Origin: Microbotryum violaceum
Taxonomy: Eukaryota
Assembly: GCA_001244265.2 (NCBI GenBank)
Contig: CDLV01000010.1
Span: forward strand, 1,364,001 to 1,428,000
DNA length: 64,000 bases
Direction of reading: 5' to 3'
Of this stretch, positions 4,015 through 26,309 are shown one piece after another (position 1 is the first letter of the stretch; each line of letters begins with the position of its first letter). The notes under the pieces are model-generated. The model saw nothing but the letters and a program-made list of their open reading frames with translations, was not told the DNA's origin and did no database searches. The position numbers and the translations under genes were made by a program.

Positions 4015-4317
4015 AGTATGGAAATAGAATGGGCGAGGCAAGAAGTGCTACCAGGGTGAATTTTGGAGAATGCATATTGAGTTCGTGAACGGCCTACCTG
4101 ACGGCTTGAACGATAGTGGAACAGCAGGGTGCGGATAGGGCTTCTAGTAAGGATGATCGAACCCATTAGGTGCATAACTTCGGACCCTAGAAGCCCTATC
4201 CCACCCTGCTGTTCCACTATCGTTCAAGCCGTTTGGTAGGCCGTTCACGGTCTCACTTTGCATTCTCCAAATCTATACTGGTAGCACTTCTTGTCTTCCC
4301 CATTCTATTTCCATACT
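4015..4317. repeat. Imperfect inverted repeat: arms 4015-4147 and 4187-4317, 39-nt loop
   Basis: Direct complementarity, e.g. ggcttgaacgatagtggaacagcagggtg with caccctgctgttccactatcgttcaagcc. Confidence 0.95.
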
Positions 4318-4320
4318 ACT

Positions 4321-4452
4321 GGTGCGGCGGCGGGTATGCTCCAGAAACGTTGGGACGCAAGTGGACAGCTTTGCCCCCACGTTTCTGGGGCTAACCCACT
4401 GCCGCCCTAGTAAGGATGATCGAACCTATTAAGTGCATAACTTCTTGGGACC
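4321..4452. repeat. Second hairpin (4321-4407) followed by a direct copy (4407-4444) of the first hairpin's loop (4144-4181)
   Basis: ccagaaacgt/acgtttctgg stem; ctagtaaggatgatcgaaccYattaRgtgcataacttc present twice (36/38 identical). Confidence 0.9.
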
Positions 4453-4625
4453 ATGGGAAGCTTACTGCATCGACGCACGTGAAAGATAGGTGTTGGAGAA
4501 GGCGAGGACACGACTCCAAAAGCCCGGGCCGTCAGTCAGGGCAAGCGGGTTGTCGTTGAAACGTAGAAAGATATACGGCGAGAACGGGTGAGAGTGAGAT
4601 CCACAAAGGGATCTTAATTAAGGAA

Positions 4626-5045
4626 GTCTACGAAGATGTAATGAAAATTATCAGCAGGACAGCGAGGCAAAACTGCTTAATCGCCGATCGGGCCCTTTCA
4701 GGCTGTAACCCCTACAGGCACCCATCGAGCACTGGCAGCCAGGTAGAGCAATTTGATGGACCCCTCAGCCGGCCGGCAGGCCGAGCGGTCGATCGAACGC
4801 CTGCCACTGCAGGCCCTGCACTTCCGGCACCGAGATACGCGGGCATAGTTAGAGGTGCAAGTGCTCACAAGTTTGGTCAAACCTAGTCGTAAGGATGGTA
4901 TAGATTCGATGCTGGTCGAGCAAGTGAAGCAGCAGGAGTGATCGTGGGGAGCGAATTTGACAGATTCGTGAGCACCGCCGGAGCTCGTCGACGGAGACGC
5001 GTCAGGAGTCAGGACGCGTCAGCTGGCTGCAAGCCGTGCCGGCCA
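4626..5045 (-). repeat. Copy 1 of a diverged dispersed repeat or gene-fragment family (others at ~9990-10262 and ~25110-25520)
   Basis: Reverse complement aligns by eye to 25110-25520 (gcccgcgtatctcggtgccggaag; cttcacttgctcgaccagcat; ggcccgatcggcgat). Confidence 0.8.
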
Positions 5046-9989: not shown

Positions 9990-10262
9990 TCGCTCGACCA
10001 GATCGAAGTTTTGTTGCTACCCCTTCTTTCAATGTCGTGAGTCTTGGTACCTCCATCACTATCCGTTTGACTTCGCGTCGAAAGTGCAGTCGTTCGAATC
10101 GACCGCTCTACCTGCTATCGACGTCCATCACGCCCGCCTCACGTGGCTGGCCCCGCTGTTCGATGAGCGCCTGCAGAACGTGCAGCCTCGCCAAAGCCCG
10201 TTTGACGATCGAGCGCTCTTGCGTTGCAGTCTGCTGATGCTCTTGCTTGTACCGTTGTAGTT
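9990..10262 (+). repeat. Copy 2 of the dispersed repeat or gene-fragment family
   Basis: cgttcgaatcgaccgctctacctgct and gatcgagcgctcttgcgttgc match gcgttcgaatcgaccactcgacctgct and gatcgagcactcttgccttgc at 25.3-25.5 kb. Confidence 0.7.
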
Positions 10263-10384
10263 ATCTACTTGGACCCATTCGTCAGCTCGCTTGTGGTTGG
10301 CGTGCCACGCCGTGGCTGCCACTGGCTTTCGGAGCCGTGCGTTCGCTTCGCTCACAATTTTTCCCGTACTTCGGTGCGGATAGA

Positions 10385-10670
10385 TTGGCCGCTGCCCGAA
10401 AGTTCATTAGGGACATGGTGGTGACGTTGGGAATGGGGGCAACGTTTGTGCAGATCGTTGAGTCGACAGCCTTGGCCCCACATACCGTCGCTGCAACATG
10501 GCATATTGATGCAACTTCGCATCAGGCCTCCAAACTCCAGGCCGTCCAGGACGGAACGGCAAGCGGGGTGGATGACCTGGATAAACGTGTTGGCAAGGTC
10601 GAGGTCCGTGTGGACAGCTTTAGGAGAAGCTTGCTCGCCACCCGGCGGAAGAAGCGGGAAAGGAGGCGAG
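10385..10670 (+). pseudogene. Disabled copy of the 78-aa microprotein gene at 10735-11042
   Basis: ATG replaced by TTG, splice-donor region deleted, and a 1-nt deletion with TAG in exon 2 relative to the intact copy. Confidence 0.65.
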
Positions 10671-10734
10671 GAGGGCATGACCCGATCGTTATACCTCTCT
10701 TTCCCCCCTGTCCCCCTTGTTCCTCCCCACCCTC

Positions 10735-11042
10735 CTACGCCTTCTTCCCCGCTTCTTCGGCCGCTTGCCGAGCAAGCTTCTCCTCAAGCTTGTTCATACG
10801 GACCTCGACCTCGCCAACTCGTTTATTGAGGCCGTCCACCCGGCTTGCGGTTCGATCCGCCGCGGTCTTGAGTTCGGAGGCCTGATCGATGCAAAGCTGC
10901 GTTAACATTCTATGCTGCAGGACGGTAAGTGGGGGCAAGGCTGTCGGCTTACCTCGCGAGTGCCTCCGACGATTTGAGCGAAGGTCGCGCCCATCGTCAT
11001 CGTCACGACAACGTCTTTGACGAGTTTTCGGGTAGCGGCCAT
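10735..11042 (-). CDS. Predicted 78-aa microprotein, hydrophobic N-terminal segment plus coiled coil; intron 10882-10952
   Basis: MAATRKLVKDVVVTMTMGATFAQIVGGTRE|gtaagc...ttaac...cag|ASELKTAADRTASRVDGLNKRVGEVEVRMNKLEEKLARQAAEEAGKKA*. Confidence 0.65.
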
Positions 11043-11624
11043 CTTATCTGCACCGACGGACGGGAAAAGTTGTGAGCAGCGAAGCGAGCTCACAGCTCCG
11101 AAAGCCAGTGGCAGCCGTGGCGTGGCACGCCAGCGTGCTGAGAGAGTGGTGGATACAAGCGAGCTGACGAACGGGGCCAAGTAATTAACATCGCCAGCCA
11201 GGCCTTTAACAGGGAGGACGTCGATTGCGAAGTCGTTTTGGCCCGTTTCGACGACGGCTCATCGGCCATGGCATTGGACGACATGGGTTGAATCTAGTAG
11301 ACTGTCACGGGAGACGTTATCATAGTTGATGCACTATGAGTGAAGGAGAAGGGCGAGGTAGGGGATCGATGATGGCGGGCCAATCGCCATGACTTGGTCG
11401 ATGGAAAGAACTCTGTAGAATTTTTGCCTTGCTGTGCAAGCCGAGACTTGCTTTGATCGGTAGAGATCCGTTCACTAGGCCATACCACCACCAATGTTGG
11501 CACATTATGAGTTTATCTCATCACGAGCTTACACACAGGCCGGTCTCTTGGGTGTATTGCAGCTCCTGCCTACGTGCAAACGAAAGGTTCCGGTCAGAGT
11601 TCACCATCACGCTAACCTCGTTCC

Positions 11625-11944
11625 CTAGTCCGCCCTCGCCCCGTTCTCCCGCCTGCTTTCAACAAGAGCCTTGGCTTTAGCTAATCGTTCCTGCAGAATC
11701 TCGAACCTCTCCCGGTTCTCTGAAGCCAGGTCCCTTTCCACGCGCGTTTTCTCGTCGGCCAGCCACTGGCGGATGAGGAACCGCGTTAGCACGCTACTAT
11801 ATTGCCGCGACTGCATGGCCGATGAGGCTCATAACCTACCGGCATGTAGTAGTCCCTCACGACATCTGCAGAGTGGACAAGAGCAGACCCAACGACCAGT
11901 ATTTCTGCGGCTTTTCGGACCAAAGTTCGATGGACCAACAACAT
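11625..11944 (-). CDS. Predicted 81-aa microprotein, hydrophobic segment plus coiled coil; intron 11766-11839
   Basis: MLLVHRTLVRKAAEILVVGSALVHSADVVRDYYMP|gtaggt...gctaac...cag|WLADEKTRVERDLASENRERFEILQERLAKAKALVESRRENGARAD*. Confidence 0.65.
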
Positions 11945-12418
11945 GGCAACCCGCACCTGCATCCGAGACGTAGTGAGGAATCGGTGAGCACGAGCGGGCG
12001 CACGGCCCTAACAGCTAGGTAGCAGTGATGCCGCCTCGGCACACCGAAGCCGAGTGGCGGCTAGGGCTTGATACCGCAAGCCCAGTTGAGAGACTCACGG
12101 TAGTTATGACAGTGAGAGGGTCTACAACGATACAATGAAGAGCATCAGCGGACTGTACTGCAAGAGTGCTCGGTCGGTGATCGCCGACTGGCGGATCTTT
12201 ACCCAGGCCGTGACCAGCACCAAGTGCCCGCGTCAGTCCGGCGTCTCGGCACGTAGGACGCGTCATCTCGCGGCAGGTCGCGGCAAGCCATTATGACACT
12301 GCCACGCACGAGCTTTGGAGCAGTCGAGCGACAACAATAGTGCGTGGCAATGTCATAATGGCTTGCCGCGAGATGACCCGATTCCTCACATACGTCTCGG
12401 ATACAGGTGCGGGTTGCC

Positions 12419-12745
12419 ATGTCATCCGTCCTAGAACCCTTGCTCCGCAGAGTTTCCCATAACTTTATTGTGACCGTCGCTCTGGTTCAATGTGCCTACG
12501 TCGCGAGGAGCTTCTACATCCCGGTACGTCATGAGGCTCATCGCCGCATGCGGTCGCGGCAACATAGGAGCATGCTAATGCGGTTCTCCATCGGCCAGAC
12601 ACCCAGCGACAGGCAAATCGAGCTCAAAAAATTGCTCGACAGGGTGGATAGGAAACTTCGTGAAGTGGAGACGCGTTTGGAAAGCAAGGGGGAGAACGGG
12701 ACGAGGGCGGACACGGAACGAGGTTGGCGTGATGGTGAAGTTTAA
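12419..12745 (+). CDS. Predicted 83-aa microprotein, paralogue of 11625-11944; intron 12524-12598
   Basis: MSSVLEPLLRRVSHNFIVTVALVQCAYVARSFYIP|gtacgt...gctaat...cag|TPSDRQIELKKLLDRVDRKLREVETRLESKGENGTRADTERGWRDGEV*. Confidence 0.65.
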   Translation: MSSVLEPLLRRVSHNFIVTVALVQCAYVARSFYIPVRHEAHRRMRSRQHRSMLMRFSIGQTPSDRQIELKKLLDRVDRKLREVETRLESKGENGTRADTERGWRDGEV

Positions 12746-13078
12746 GCGGGATTTTTCGTATGCACTTTGGCAGAAGCTGAAATACACCCAAGAGACGGAA
12801 CTGTGTCTGGGCTTGTGATCAGATAGACTCATAATGTGCCAACATTTGGTGGTGGTCTGGCCCCAGTGAACGGATCTCTCACGATCAAATCAAGTCTCGG
12901 CTTGTGTGCACAGCAAGGCAAAAATTCTACAGAGAGTTCTTTGCTTCGAGCAAGCCACGGCGATCGGCCCACATTGGCTCTCCTTTGCCCTCATCGATCG
13001 CCTACCTCGCCCTTCTCCTTCACTCATAGTGCATCAACTGTGCCAACCTCTCCCGTGATAGTTTACTAAACTCAATCC

Positions 13079-15635
<2,557 letters not shown>

Positions 15636-24626: not shown

Positions 24627-26309
24627 ATTGTAACGAGGTGACATTCTGGACGATATTCGGGTTGCAGAAAGAAAAGAGAGACGCGAGCTACAAAATTGGG
24701 CAACTATGTCAGAGGAGACGATGCAAGCCAGAAGATGTGTTGGAGAGGCAAAGCTGGTGTAGGCCGTGCTTGGTCTGTCAAAAGTAGTCATCGCAGATGG
24801 TCGAGCTTGAGAGCTTGAGAGCCGAGAGCGAGTCACTTTCCCCAGCGCACGCGCGCCCCCCCCTCCCCCCCAATTTTCGTTGAATAAACCTTCAGCTCTA
24901 AAGAGCTTCGGGCACTTTAAAATAAAATTTGGAAACATCAGACCTTTCGATTACTGGGTATAGCTTGATTAACGAAGTCGTGTCAGTCCTTGTCATGCAT
25001 CTTGCGCTGTTGACCGCCCCGGGATATGGGACCCGTGGGGTCCTGGCTACCACGCGCACGCCCTGTCCGCACGAGCCTGAAGTGCGCGACAAGCGGTGCC
25101 ACCTTATCGTGCACGGGCCGGCACGACTTGCCGCGAGCTGACGCGTCCTCAGAGGCTGTCGCGTCTTCGTTGGCGAGCTCCGCCGGCCGTGCTCACGAAT
25201 TTTGTCTTCGCTCCCCAAACTTGCTCCTGCTGCTTCACTTGCTCGACCAGCATAGATTCTATACCACACCTACCATTAGGTTTGATCAAACATGTGAGCT
25301 CTTGTATCTCTATCTCTGCCCGCGTATCTCGGTGCCGGAAGAGCAGGCGTTCGAATCGACCACTCGACCTGCTGTTGAGGCCCATCTAGCTCTACCTGGC
25401 CGCCGGTGCTCGGTGTTTTCCTGGAGGAGTTACAGCCTAGTAAAGGCCAAAGGCCCGATCGGCGATCGAGCACTCTTGCCTTGCTGTCCCGCTGATTTCT
25501 TCGTTGTATCTTTGTAGACATCTGAAGCCAACGTGTAAGTCTGGCCTACCTTTGCTGTCTCACTGCACCGTATGCCGACTAGTACTACCACGCCTCGGCG
25601 TCCTATGGCTACTTGACTGGCTCTCGGAGGCAGCCGTGTGCAAGATTTGCTCACAGTGTTCTTCGCGTGCATCTCGGATGCAGTTGACATTTCAAACACC
25701 GTGCTTAGACAAGGCTACCCTGCCGGAGTTTTTTCGTTGGCCTCCACTGTCCAGATCATGTCTATGGTCAGCAACGCCGTGCATGTAAGATGACCTTGTC
25801 TCCATTTGCAGTCGCCATAGCACGCTAACGCAAGCTCATCGGCCAGTCCGGGAAGAACGACTTGAGGGAGGACACAGCAAGAGTCTTGGAGATACACGAA
25901 TTGAAGAATGAAATGAATAATTTTTTTGCTCTCATGTCGGAAAGGAGCGAGGAAGATTACGACGAAAAGAAGAGGTAAAGAGAGAGGATGGTCTGAGTTG
26001 GACACGGGACACCTCGTTGTTGACTCGTACAGGGGCAAACGGGTTGAATCGGAGCCAGTAGACAGGTCTTTCCCTTCTCATGTCCAACGCTATGCTCTCG
26101 ACTACTCGATTCTCCCTCTCGGCTCTCAACCTCGGCCACCTGCGCTTACTACTTTCGGCAGATCAAGCACGGCCTACTCCATCATCGCCGCTCCAGGCCA
26201 TCTCCTGGCTTCCACCGTCTCCTCTAGCATAGCTGCGCAATTTTGTAGCTCGCTTCTCTCTTTCCTTTCTGCGACCCAGAGCTCGTCAAAAAGGCATATC
26301 GTTACAGTT
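24627..26309. repeat. Diverged ~200-bp inverted repeats (24627-24832 and 26110-26309) enclosing copy 3 of the dispersed family (25110-25520)
   Basis: gcagaaagaaaagagagacgcgagctacaaaattg pairs with caattttgtagctcgcttctctctttcctttctgc. Confidence 0.85.

What the first reader, a model, noticed from the sequence alone, without database searches (positions are those of the whole stretch)
11625..12745. Paralogous exons more diverged than their intron: candidate diversifying selection
Seen (hand alignment): exon 1 of the divergent pair is 61/105 nt identical (58%; 13/35 aa) with no indels or stops. The intron is about 80% identical and the ~40 nt before the ATG about 95%. Exon 2 aligns well only near its ENG.RAD end. 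Inference: accelerated amino-acid change with the frame preserved, as seen in conflict or recognition genes. Gene conversion of the flanks is an alternative, since synonymous sites also differ.
Basis: partly seen in the sequence, partly recalled or inferred. Interest (0 to 1): 0.75.

Follow-up and report, generated by a model that had tools for sequence, protein, structure and literature searches.

The report
Fast-evolving gene pair with conserved introns
Two head-to-head copies of a small anther-smut fungus gene really do differ far more in their coding parts than in their introns and flanks, but the tests I could run point to fast, weakly constrained proteins inside an unusually conserved non-coding frame, not to proven diversifying selection.

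Summary
Exon 1 is 61/105 nt and 13/35 aa identical. The intron is 62/74 identical and the 43 nt before the ATG are 39/42.

The window is Microbotryum; copy B is MVLG_03969. Genes A (-) and B (+) lie head to head in an inverted duplication, 11213-11984 / 12378-13150. That duplication also copied the PRP43 promoter and its first 24 codons. RNA contigs of a relative splice both coding introns and reveal a 5' leader exon.

The family is wider than the pair. A third paralogue (D, 25.4-26.0 kb) repeats the pattern: leader and introns align, exons do not.

dN/dS is not above 1: 0.46 for exon 1 and about 0.94 for exon 2, with synonymous sites saturated. Rough values against relatives are 0.2-0.5.

The non-coding parts are also conserved between orthologues, which arm-to-arm conversion does not explain.

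My best reading is old duplicates with frame-preserving but weakly constrained coding blocks inside a constrained non-coding chassis, plus later copying or conversion of the outer arm. Diversifying selection is not shown and not excluded. Interest is moderate.

The parts
11213..11284 (-). Outer end of arm A: a copy of the first 72 nt (24 codons) of the PRP43 coding sequence
   Evidence: 68/72 identical to 13079-13150. All 4 differences fall on third codon positions and both copies translate alike.
11285..11624 (-). Arm A 3' flank: gene A 3' UTR plus a copy of the PRP43 promoter region. It probably serves as the upstream region of MVLG_03970.
   Evidence: 272 matches, 37 mismatches and 55 gap columns against 12746-13078. 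The link to MVLG_03970 is my inference from gene spans in supplement file 2 of PMC4469406.
11625..11765 (-). Gene A exon 2 (46 codons plus stop)
   Evidence: Orthologues are P0004 (M. silenes-dioicae) and P0005 (M. saponariae). It lies in a spliced X17 RNA contig (record 23).
11766..11839 (-). Gene A coding intron, 74 nt, GTAGGT..CAG
   Evidence: An X17 contig joins across it (table 5: 11758>11840).
11840..11956 (-). Gene A exon 1: 12 nt of 5' UTR plus 35 codons, ATG at 11944-11942
   Evidence: record 23 covers 11840-11956.
11957..12098 (-). Gene A 5'-UTR intron, 142 nt, GTGAGT..CAG
   Evidence: The 14-nt loose end of X17 record 23 equals window 12099-12114 apart from a 2-nt deletion that X17 also shows at 12109 (tables 4 and 7). 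Splice-site letters were checked.
12099..12217 (-). Gene A leader exon (its 5' end is not mapped). It holds the shared element E at about 12120-12183.
   Evidence: record 24. Copies of E were found by blastn and nhmmer at 10189-10292, 25441-25544 and 4621-4697.
12268..12381 (.). Small central palindrome (upstream element U on both strands), 42-nt arms 88% complementary
   Evidence: (I8). U also lies upstream of D.
12376..12418 (+). Conserved 43 nt before the ATG of B: the 3' end of a 5'-UTR intron (branch site, CAG) plus 12 nt of UTR. The leader exon and the donor site are missing on this arm.
   Evidence: 39/42 identical to A. The three-way alignment shows U joined directly to the intron tail in B. 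The leader motif occurs only once in the window.
12419..12523 (+). Gene B exon 1 (35 codons)
   Evidence: P0003 = MVLG_03969; record 25.
12524..12598 (+). Gene B coding intron, 75 nt, GTACGT..CAG. It is in frame and open, so it was annotated as read-through in two other species.
   Evidence: joint 12519>12598; P0001, P0002.
12599..12745 (+). Gene B exon 2 (48 codons plus stop)
12746..13150 (+). Arm B 3' flank: B 3' UTR, the PRP43 promoter and 5' UTR, and the first 72 nt of the real PRP43 gene (ATG at 13079)
   Evidence: PRP43 is named in supplement file 2 of PMC4469406. The PRP43 intron 13301-13385 is spliced in X17.
25441..25978 (+). Third paralogue D: E/leader to 25534, predicted 5'-UTR intron 25535-25683, exon 1 25684-25784 (no ATG at the family position), intron 25785-25846, exon 2 25847-25978
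   Evidence: The M. silenes-dioicae orthologue P0007 is 41/43 identical over exon 2. The gene model rests on homology only.
10189..11189 (.). Neighbouring palindrome with the C gene pair. C-left (+, decayed) has element E upstream. C-right (-) is probably MVLG_03970. The architecture is the same: about 30 codons, a short intron, then a helical exon 2.
   Evidence: The intron profile hits 10953-10881 (E 7.5e-4) and 10468-10525 (E 2e-3).

Best explanation
A and B are two real protein-coding genes. Both are transcribed and spliced. They encode Microbotryum-restricted proteins of 81 and 83 residues, predicted as two helices. They lie head to head in an old inverted duplication. They belong to a local family (A, B, D, the C pair and a relic) that shares a non-coding chassis: an upstream element, a leader exon, a 5'-UTR intron, a short coding intron at one fixed position, and the last codons plus the 3' end.

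The contrast between exons and intron arises in two ways. The two coding blocks (codons 2-27 of exon 1 and most of exon 2) have drifted for a long time under weak purifying selection. That selection keeps the frame and the helical, hydrophobic-then-charged character, but little of the sequence (dN/dS about 0.2-0.9, synonymous sites saturated). The non-coding chassis, by contrast, is held nearly constant, mainly by selection on transcription, splicing and UTR signals. The outer arm (PRP43 promoter and its first 24 codons) is too alike for that explanation. It was copied or converted later.

Shown: the gene structures, splicing in a relative, block-wise identities, dN/dS at or below 1, orthologue conservation of the intron, and the third paralogue. 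Inferred: that constraint rather than conversion keeps the intron and leader alike, and what the conserved non-coding signals do.
For: (1) Real genes. X17 RNA contigs join exactly across both coding introns and across the PRP43 intron (tables 5 and 8). All exon indels are multiples of three, whereas the non-coding indels listed are 1, 2, 4, 9 and 16 nt. table 4 puts the 9-nt one at the same place as the exon insertion.

(2) dN/dS is not above 1: 0.46 and about 0.94 between the paralogues. X14 has 3 synonymous and 2 non-synonymous exon changes. The listed X17 changes are 4 synonymous and 6 non-synonymous. With about a quarter of sites synonymous, that is roughly 0.2 and 0.5.

(3) The divergent blocks are old at silent sites too. 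Of 8 same-amino-acid codons in exon 1 codons 2-27, 5 differ. In the conserved ends, 0 of 4 and 0 of 9 differ.

(4) The non-coding parts are also conserved between orthologues, where conversion between arms cannot help. The translated B intron is 25/25 identical in M. silenes-dioicae and 24/25 in M. saponariae, against 16 changes in 71 exon codons (Fisher p=0.038). The translated 3' UTR is 23/27 identical. In X14, 5 of the 6 differences in the 1698-nt contig 11333-13030 fall in the 498 nt of exons (p=0.0098). The same strain has 8 differences in 1050 nt of the C region, against 1 in 1200 nt of A/B non-coding DNA (p=0.015). In X17 the exons show 27/462 and the 5' intron plus leader 7/277 (p=0.045). 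The listed PRP43 changes are 4 synonymous and 1 non-synonymous.

(5) The third paralogue D shows the same pattern. Identity including gaps is 0.72 for the leader, 0.69 for the 5'-intron end and 0.64/0.62 for the intron, each above the best of 200 shuffles. The exons score 0.52/0.53 and 0.54/0.49, which is shuffle level.

(6) The outer arm needs later copying: the PRP43 fragment is 68/72 identical with all 4 differences silent.
Against: The neutral yardstick is indirect. I had no orthologous DNA, only proteins for M. silenes-dioicae and M. saponariae and a partial difference table for X17 (10 of its 27 exon differences were listed; no X17 contig covered the coding introns). If the true neutral divergence is as low as the 3' UTR suggests, exon dN would be near or above neutral.

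The neighbouring C palindrome is about 80% identical in both coding and non-coding parts. That is close to the non-coding identity of A/B. If both palindromes are equally old, the A/B exons would be accelerated rather than the non-coding parts constrained.

Constraint over some 330 nt of 3' flank is a strong demand. No function of the conserved intron was found: no Rfam family at gathering score and no fold better than shuffles. All counts are small. Eight replacements in 164 codons between two very close species is high.
Confidence: 0.5

Rival explanations
1. Island of divergence under gene conversion. Under this reading the duplication is old and conversion between the arms keeps homogenising them. 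Selection for different A and B functions, or simply too much divergence, blocks conversion in the two coding blocks. Those blocks, with their linked silent sites, therefore keep the original depth.
For: The layout is an inverted repeat. Silent sites are saturated only inside the divergent blocks. The PRP43 fragment is 68/72 identical although it cannot encode PRP43. Identity rises toward the outer arm: 84% in the intron, 87% in the flank, 94% in the fragment. The pattern is the one described for opsin and RNASE1 duplicates (PMC3924837, passages).
Against: The defining test fails for the intron. A and B introns differ at 12 of 74 sites, while orthologous B introns are 25/25 and 24/25 identical in translation. 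No conversion has therefore occurred since M. saponariae split off. Conversion does not lower divergence between species, yet the non-coding parts are conserved there too. The conserved middle island is only about 100 nt, flanked by unalignable DNA, which is short for a conversion tract. D lies 13 kb away outside the palindrome and shows the same pattern.
Confidence: 0.2
2. Diversifying (positive) selection, or venom-like accelerated segment switching, in the coding blocks of a host-interaction or conflict protein.
For: The exons change faster than the adjacent non-coding DNA at three depths. There are 4+4 replacements in 81+83 residues between sister species, against a median identity of 98.7% (PMC6831777, section 8). 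X17 has four neighbouring replacements at B codons 50-58. The frame is kept through five indels. One likely compensated +1/-1 shift rewrites codons 5-7 of exon 1. The genes are lineage-restricted with no known family. Both genes are covered by spliced contigs of an RNA run. Introns conserved while exon segments are replaced is the ASSET picture in three-finger toxin genes (PMC2474615, passages).
Against: No comparison gives dN/dS above 1. Silent sites are as diverged as replacement sites in the blocks. Between M. lychnidis-dioicae and M. saponariae the proteins are 76-77% identical. The median is 86.9% even for the nearer M. v. paradoxa (PMC6831777, section 8; tree order from PMC9004411 passages), so these proteins are fast but not extreme. 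MVLG_03969 is absent from the secretome and expression supplements I could search, though other gene identifiers may be used there. A signal peptide could not be tested.
Confidence: 0.2
3. The 'exons' carry no protein function. On this reading the locus is a non-coding or hairpin-RNA source, or a host for an intron-borne RNA. Only the act of transcription and splicing, or pairing between the arms, would matter.
For: The non-coding parts are the conserved parts. The Broad gene model MVLG_03969 spans 1244 nt, about the length of A plus spacer plus B (my mapping). A transcript through the palindrome would fold back on itself.
Against: The open frames are kept in four lineages despite 42-48% nucleotide divergence, and every exon indel is in frame. 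Codon position 3 is the least conserved in exon 1: 15/35, against 24/35 and 22/35. There is no Rfam family at gathering score. The intron folds are no better than shuffles, with z of -1.2, 0.0 and -0.3. The X17 contigs are separate spliced mRNAs on opposite strands.
Confidence: 0.05

Closest known systems
Duplicates with a 'peak of divergence' under interlocus gene conversion (red/green opsins, RNASE1; Teshima and Innan model; review PMC3924837, passages read)
   Same: Paralogues whose introns and UTRs are much more alike than parts of their exons. Divergence is confined to short coding blocks.
   Different: There, introns group by species, which shows ongoing conversion. Here, orthologous introns are far more alike than paralogous ones. 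A third dispersed paralogue also shows the pattern.
Venom gene families with conserved introns and UTRs and accelerated or switched exon segments (ASSET in three-finger toxins, PMC2474615, passages read; snake PLA2 and cone-snail peptides recalled from memory, not checked here)
   Same: A conserved non-coding scaffold and conserved ends. Short exon segments are changed beyond recognition. Length and fold type are kept. The genes form a family cluster.
   Different: Those families show dN/dS near or above 1 and are proven secreted toxins. Here dN/dS is 0.2-0.9, and secretion and function are unknown.
Fast-evolving, lineage-specific small proteins of Microbotryum (secretome study PMC6831777: section 8 and passages read, 6 supplement files searched)
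   Same: [quoted passage not shown]
   Different: This gene was not found in that paper's supplements under its MVLG number. The palindromic pair and the shared leader and intron chassis are not described in any text I read.
Large palindromes kept alike by arm-to-arm conversion (sex-chromosome palindromes; recalled, not checked here)
   Same: Inverted arms with genes in each arm and a unique spacer.
   Different: The arms here are only 52-94% identical, block by block, not near-identical. The scale is 0.8 kb.

Membership tests
Conversion-maintained duplicates (opsin type) | Non-coding DNA of paralogues within a species is more alike than that of orthologues between species | tested here: not met
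   A and B introns have 12 mismatches and 1 gap in 75 columns. The B intron against M. silenes-dioicae and M. saponariae is 25/25 and 24/25 identical as translated codons. Only protein-level orthologue data were available.
Conversion-maintained duplicates (opsin type) | Divergence peaks confined to short coding stretches, with silent sites raised inside the peak | tested here: met
   Block identities are 52-53% inside and 79-94% outside. Silent differences are 5 of 8 inside the exon 1 block, against 0 of 4 and 0 of 9 in the conserved exon ends.
Genes under diversifying selection / venom-like accelerated evolution | dN/dS above 1 in the variable region | tested here: not met
   0.46 for exon 1 and about 0.94 for the exon 2 block. 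X14 has 3 synonymous and 2 non-synonymous changes. X17 has 4 and 6 among the 10 listed of its 27 exon differences. No likelihood test was possible without orthologous DNA.
Genes under diversifying selection / venom-like accelerated evolution | Introns and UTRs more conserved than coding sequence, with the frame kept | tested here: met
Secreted effector | Cleavable N-terminal signal peptide; expression in the host | not testable with these tools
   There is a 12-15 residue hydrophobic stretch after basic residues, and the model gives helix 5-33. No signal-peptide predictor was available. The gene is not listed in the searched supplements.
RIP-like mutated repeats of Microbotryum (TCG to TTG; target recalled from memory) | Excess of C-to-T changes at TCG between the copies | tested here: not met
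   3 TCG-type differences among 157 differences in the arms.
Introner-like mobile introns | Near-identical introns in unrelated genes at unrelated positions | tested here: not met
   The intron profile hits only family members, each at the same gene position. Only this 64-kb window was searched, because no whole genome is held.
Intron-hosted small RNA (snoRNA, miRNA-like) | A match to a known RNA family, or a conserved stable fold | tested here: not met
   Rfam gives only sub-threshold hairpin matches to the palindromes. Intron fold z-scores are -1.2, 0.0 and -0.3. With 3 sequences, covariation is weak.

The most novel reading that the evidence does not exclude
A clustered, anther-smut-specific family of two-helix mini-proteins is built like venom or conopeptide genes. 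A shared, strongly conserved non-coding chassis (upstream element, leader exon, 5'-UTR intron, coding intron, 3' end) carries coding cassettes that are rewritten under recurrent diversifying selection. The head-to-head A/B pair would be co-expressed from one control region as interacting partners in a host-interaction or intragenomic-conflict role. A further odd point fits this reading: transcripts of B in a relative carry the same leader end as A, yet in this genome B has no leader exon of its own.
Probability: 0.15. Interest if true: 0.7.

Novelty: new member of a known kind. Interest (0 to 1): 0.4.

Why it matters
If the non-coding chassis is truly constrained, this is a compact case where the expression and splicing signals of an orphan gene family are better preserved than its proteins. 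That makes it useful for asking what short fungal introns and leaders do beyond being removed. If the exons instead prove positively selected, the family becomes a candidate host-interaction or conflict locus in a model plant-castrating fungus. It would carry a venom-like 'conserved intron, variable exon' architecture, which I have not seen described for fungi. My paper searches were limited. Either way, it shows that 'exons more diverged than introns' alone does not establish diversifying selection.

Tried and rejected
- **Whole genome:** none is held for this window, so family size beyond the 64 kb is unknown.
- **RNA of the window's own species:** no RNA holder is listed. X16, guessed to be RNA, gave low-depth contigs that run unspliced through the B intron and the A 5' intron (records 19 and 21). 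I treat it as DNA-like and uninformative.
- **X17 gaps:** it gave no contig over either coding intron or over 10200-11486.
- **X12:** its five differences in contig 11333-13030 were not among the listed places, so I could not use them.
- **Protein family searches:** Pfam gave nothing near the cut-offs. The ESM Atlas gave nothing at 0.9 or above, and its structural neighbours are generic one- or two-helix proteins. The profile search of 1.84 billion representatives returned only Microbotryum A and B copies plus one repetitive 940-aa protein, which I regard as spurious.
- **RNA explanations:** Rfam and RNA folds of the intron gave nothing.
- **RIP-like mutation:** rejected.
- **Introner:** rejected within the window.
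- **Intron as an alternative coding exon:** an in-frame ATG to exon 2 reading exists in both A and B. Reading that frame over the intron alignment by eye, all the A/B differences in it change the amino acid. I rejected it as coding conservation.
- **Gene C as a close relative of A/B at the protein level:** only a weak match (E 0.026) and none to A. Kinship rests on the shared element E and the intron profile.
- **Earlier notes of this scan:** nothing relevant.
- **Not run:** a complex prediction for A with B, because I make no binding claim.
- **Not available:** GENECONV and PAML/HyPhy. I used Nei-Gojobori, Fisher and binomial tests written in the script box.
Full report
**What is there.** The window is from an anther-smut fungus. 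The spliced product of the plus-strand copy is letter for letter MVLG_03969 of Microbotryum lychnidis-dioicae p1A1 Lamole (P0003). Self-comparison shows an inverted duplication. Arm A is 11213-11984 (read on the minus strand) and arm B is 12378-13150. Each arm carries a small two-exon gene.
- Gene B: exon 1 12419-12523, intron 12524-12598, exon 2 12599-12745; 83 aa.
- Gene A: exon 1 11944-11840, intron 11839-11766, exon 2 11765-11625; 81 aa.
- The two genes are transcribed away from each other.

The arms run on through the 3' flank into the neighbouring PRP43 helicase gene (ATG at 13079). They end 72 nt into its coding sequence, so arm A holds a copy of the PRP43 promoter and first 24 codons. 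PRP43 is named in supplement file 2 of PMC4469406, which also lists the locus as autosomal.

- Exon 1 is 61/105 nt and 13/35 aa identical without gaps or stops.
- The intron has 62 matches, 12 mismatches and 1 gap. The 43 nt before the ATG have 39 matches, 3 mismatches and 1 gap.
- Exon 2 is 40/87 identical over its first part, with a 24-nt indel, and 24/27 over its last nine shared codons.
- The 3' flank is 269/309 identical plus 24 gap columns. The PRP43 fragment is 68/72.
- Exon 1 against the intron gives p=2.9e-4. Exon 1 against all non-coding blocks gives p=3.4e-12.
- The borders are sharp at the ATG and at the 3' splice site. However, the last 8 codons of exon 1 (19/24 nt) and the last 14 codons of exon 2 in copy B (37/42 nt) belong to the conserved blocks.

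**These are real genes.** No RNA run of the window's own species was listed. Run X17 is a relative whose pieces are 90-99% like the window, and it behaves as RNA.
- One X17 contig joins 11758 to 11840, across the A intron.
- Another joins 12519 to 12598, across the B intron.
- Others join across the PRP43 intron 13301-13385 (tables 5 and 8).
- Both spliced contigs begin with the same 14 letters that do not lie next to them in the genome. Those letters equal the minus strand of 12099-12114, apart from a 2-nt deletion that X17 also shows at 12109 (tables 4 and 7).

Gene A therefore has a leader exon ending at 12099 and a 142-nt 5'-UTR intron, 12098-11957, with GTGAGT..CAG ends. In this genome arm B lacks the leader and the donor site. 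Its upstream element joins straight onto the last roughly 30 nt of the intron, and the leader motif occurs only once in 64 kb. How B gets the same leader in X17 is open.

Every indel inside the coding exons is a multiple of three:
- 24 nt between A and B;
- 9 nt in X17's copy B, and a net 6 nt in X17's copy A;
- -2 and +3 codons in the M. saponariae copy A.

The other indels listed are 1, 2, 4, 9 and 16 nt; table 4 places the 9-nt one at the same spot as the exon insertion. AlphaFold models B as two helices, 5-33 and 38-80, broken at the exon junction, with mean pLDDT 70. Pfam, the Atlas and a profile search of 1.84 billion representatives find no family outside Microbotryum.

**A family, not only a pair.** A 55-65-nt element E in the leader of A recurs upstream of a gene at 10.2 kb and at 25.4 kb, and as a relic at 4.6 kb.

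At 25.4-26.0 kb there is a third paralogue, D. It has the same order: upstream element, leader, 5'-UTR intron, an exon of about 100 nt, a short intron, then a 43-codon helical exon. M. silenes-dioicae has D annotated (P0007, 41/43 identical). Against A and B, identity including gaps is as follows:
- leader 0.72, 5'-intron tail 0.69 and coding intron 0.64/0.62, each above the best of 200 shuffles;
- exons 0.52/0.53 and 0.54/0.49, which is shuffle level.

'Non-coding alignable, coding not' is therefore a property of the family.

The adjacent palindrome at 10.2-11.2 kb holds a further pair, C. Its intron region matches the family intron profile weakly (E 7.5e-4 and 2e-3). Its two copies are about 80% identical in coding and non-coding parts alike. 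The left copy is decayed: the start codon is lost and a 17-nt deletion removes the splice donor.

**Is it positive selection?** Nei-Gojobori counts give the following:
- exon 1: pN 0.366, pS 0.575 (dN 0.50, dS 1.09), so dN/dS is 0.46;
- divergent part of exon 2: pN 0.537, pS 0.554, so dN/dS is about 0.94.

In codons that keep the same amino acid, 5 of 8 in exon 1 codons 2-27 carry a silent difference. In the last 8 codons 0 of 4 do, and in the end of exon 2 0 of 9 do. The blocks are therefore deep at silent sites too, which amino-acid selection alone cannot produce.

Against close relatives:
- X14 differs at 3 silent and 2 replacement exon sites.
- The 10 listed of X17's 27 exon differences are 4 silent and 6 replacement.
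- With about a quarter of sites silent, these give roughly 0.2 and 0.5.

The proteins are still fast. [quoted passage not shown] Versus M. saponariae they are 76-77% identical. The median is 86.9% for the nearer M. v. paradoxa (PMC6831777; tree order from passages of PMC9004411). That is fast but not extreme.

**Conversion or constraint?** The classic reading of 'introns more alike than exons' is conversion with selection keeping a peak of divergence (PMC3924837, passages). Its diagnostic is that introns group by species. Here that diagnostic fails.

M. silenes-dioicae and M. saponariae annotators read B through its in-frame intron, so their proteins report the intron. It is 25/25 and 24/25 codons identical to the window, against 16 changes in 71 exon codons for M. 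saponariae (p=0.038). The A and B introns differ at 12 of 74 sites. The M. saponariae reading also runs into the 3' UTR, where 23 of 27 codons are identical.

Other comparisons agree:
- In strain X14, 5 of the 6 differences in the 1698-nt contig 11333-13030 lie in the 498 exon bases (p=0.0098).
- The same strain has 8 differences in 1050 nt of the C region, against 1 in 1200 nt of A/B non-coding DNA (p=0.015).
- In X17 the exons differ at 27/462 sites and the 5' intron plus leader at 7/277 (p=0.045). PRP43 changes are mostly at third positions.

Conversion between arms does not slow divergence between species. The non-coding chassis therefore looks constrained, and D supports that.

Constraint cannot explain the PRP43 fragment in arm A. 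It is 68/72 identical with all four differences silent. The outer arm must have been copied or converted later.

RIP-like mutation is excluded (3 TCG-type of 157 differences). An intron-borne RNA finds no support.

**Weak points.** I had no orthologous DNA. The neutral rate is inferred from a few PRP43 third positions and from published protein medians. The counts are small. If the C palindrome, which is uniformly about 80% identical, is the same age as the A/B palindrome, the A/B exons would be accelerated rather than the non-coding parts constrained. For these reasons I give the constrained-chassis reading 0.5. Conversion with selection and true diversifying selection each get 0.2.

**Verdict.** The kind of pattern is known from opsins and venom genes (PMC3924837, PMC2474615). 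The fungal family and its shared leader and intron chassis appear undescribed in the texts I could search.

Noticed in passing
window 12330-12418 versus 11945-12320; X17 loose ends at 11956 and 12407: In the relative X17, spliced transcripts of both A and B start with the same 14-nt leader end. In this genome only arm A has that leader exon and donor site. Arm B has a deletion of roughly 330 nt that joins the upstream element to the intron tail, yet it keeps a well-preserved branch site and CAG. Runs X14 and X12 are colinear with the window here. How B is transcribed in this species is unknown.
   Followed up: partly
window 11213-11284 and 10735-11189: The copied PRP43 promoter and first 24 codons sit just upstream of the next small gene (C-right, probably MVLG_03970, 550-nt model). 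A housekeeping promoter copy may therefore now drive an orphan gene. All four differences from the real PRP43 start are silent third-position changes.
   Followed up: partly
window 10298-10675 versus 10730-11132; 10970: A second, convergent palindrome holds a gene pair of the same architecture. The left copy has lost its start codon and splice donor. Runs X14 and X12 carry a 2-nt insertion after 10970, inside exon 1 of my model for the right copy. Either the model or that gene's intactness differs between strains.
   Followed up: partly
window 4100-4700 (minus strand): This is a relic family member. An E-like element (4697-4621) and an intron-tail-like CAG near 4470 are followed by a roughly 300-nt insert. 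The insert is bounded by two copies of a 37-nt direct repeat and holds a long internal inverted repeat, so it looks like a small hairpin-forming mobile element.
   Followed up: no
window 12217 onward; 25397-25410: The unspliced X17 contig leaves the window's sequence after 12217 for 160 nt. The new sequence resembles the longer upstream region of paralogue D. The spacer of the palindrome therefore differs structurally between species.
   Followed up: no
window 12524-12598: The B intron is 75 nt, in frame and free of stops. Public annotations therefore disagree: it is spliced in M. lychnidis-dioicae (83 aa) and read through in M. silenes-dioicae (108 aa) and M. saponariae (130 aa, with a shifted C-terminus). 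RNA contigs support splicing.
   Followed up: yes
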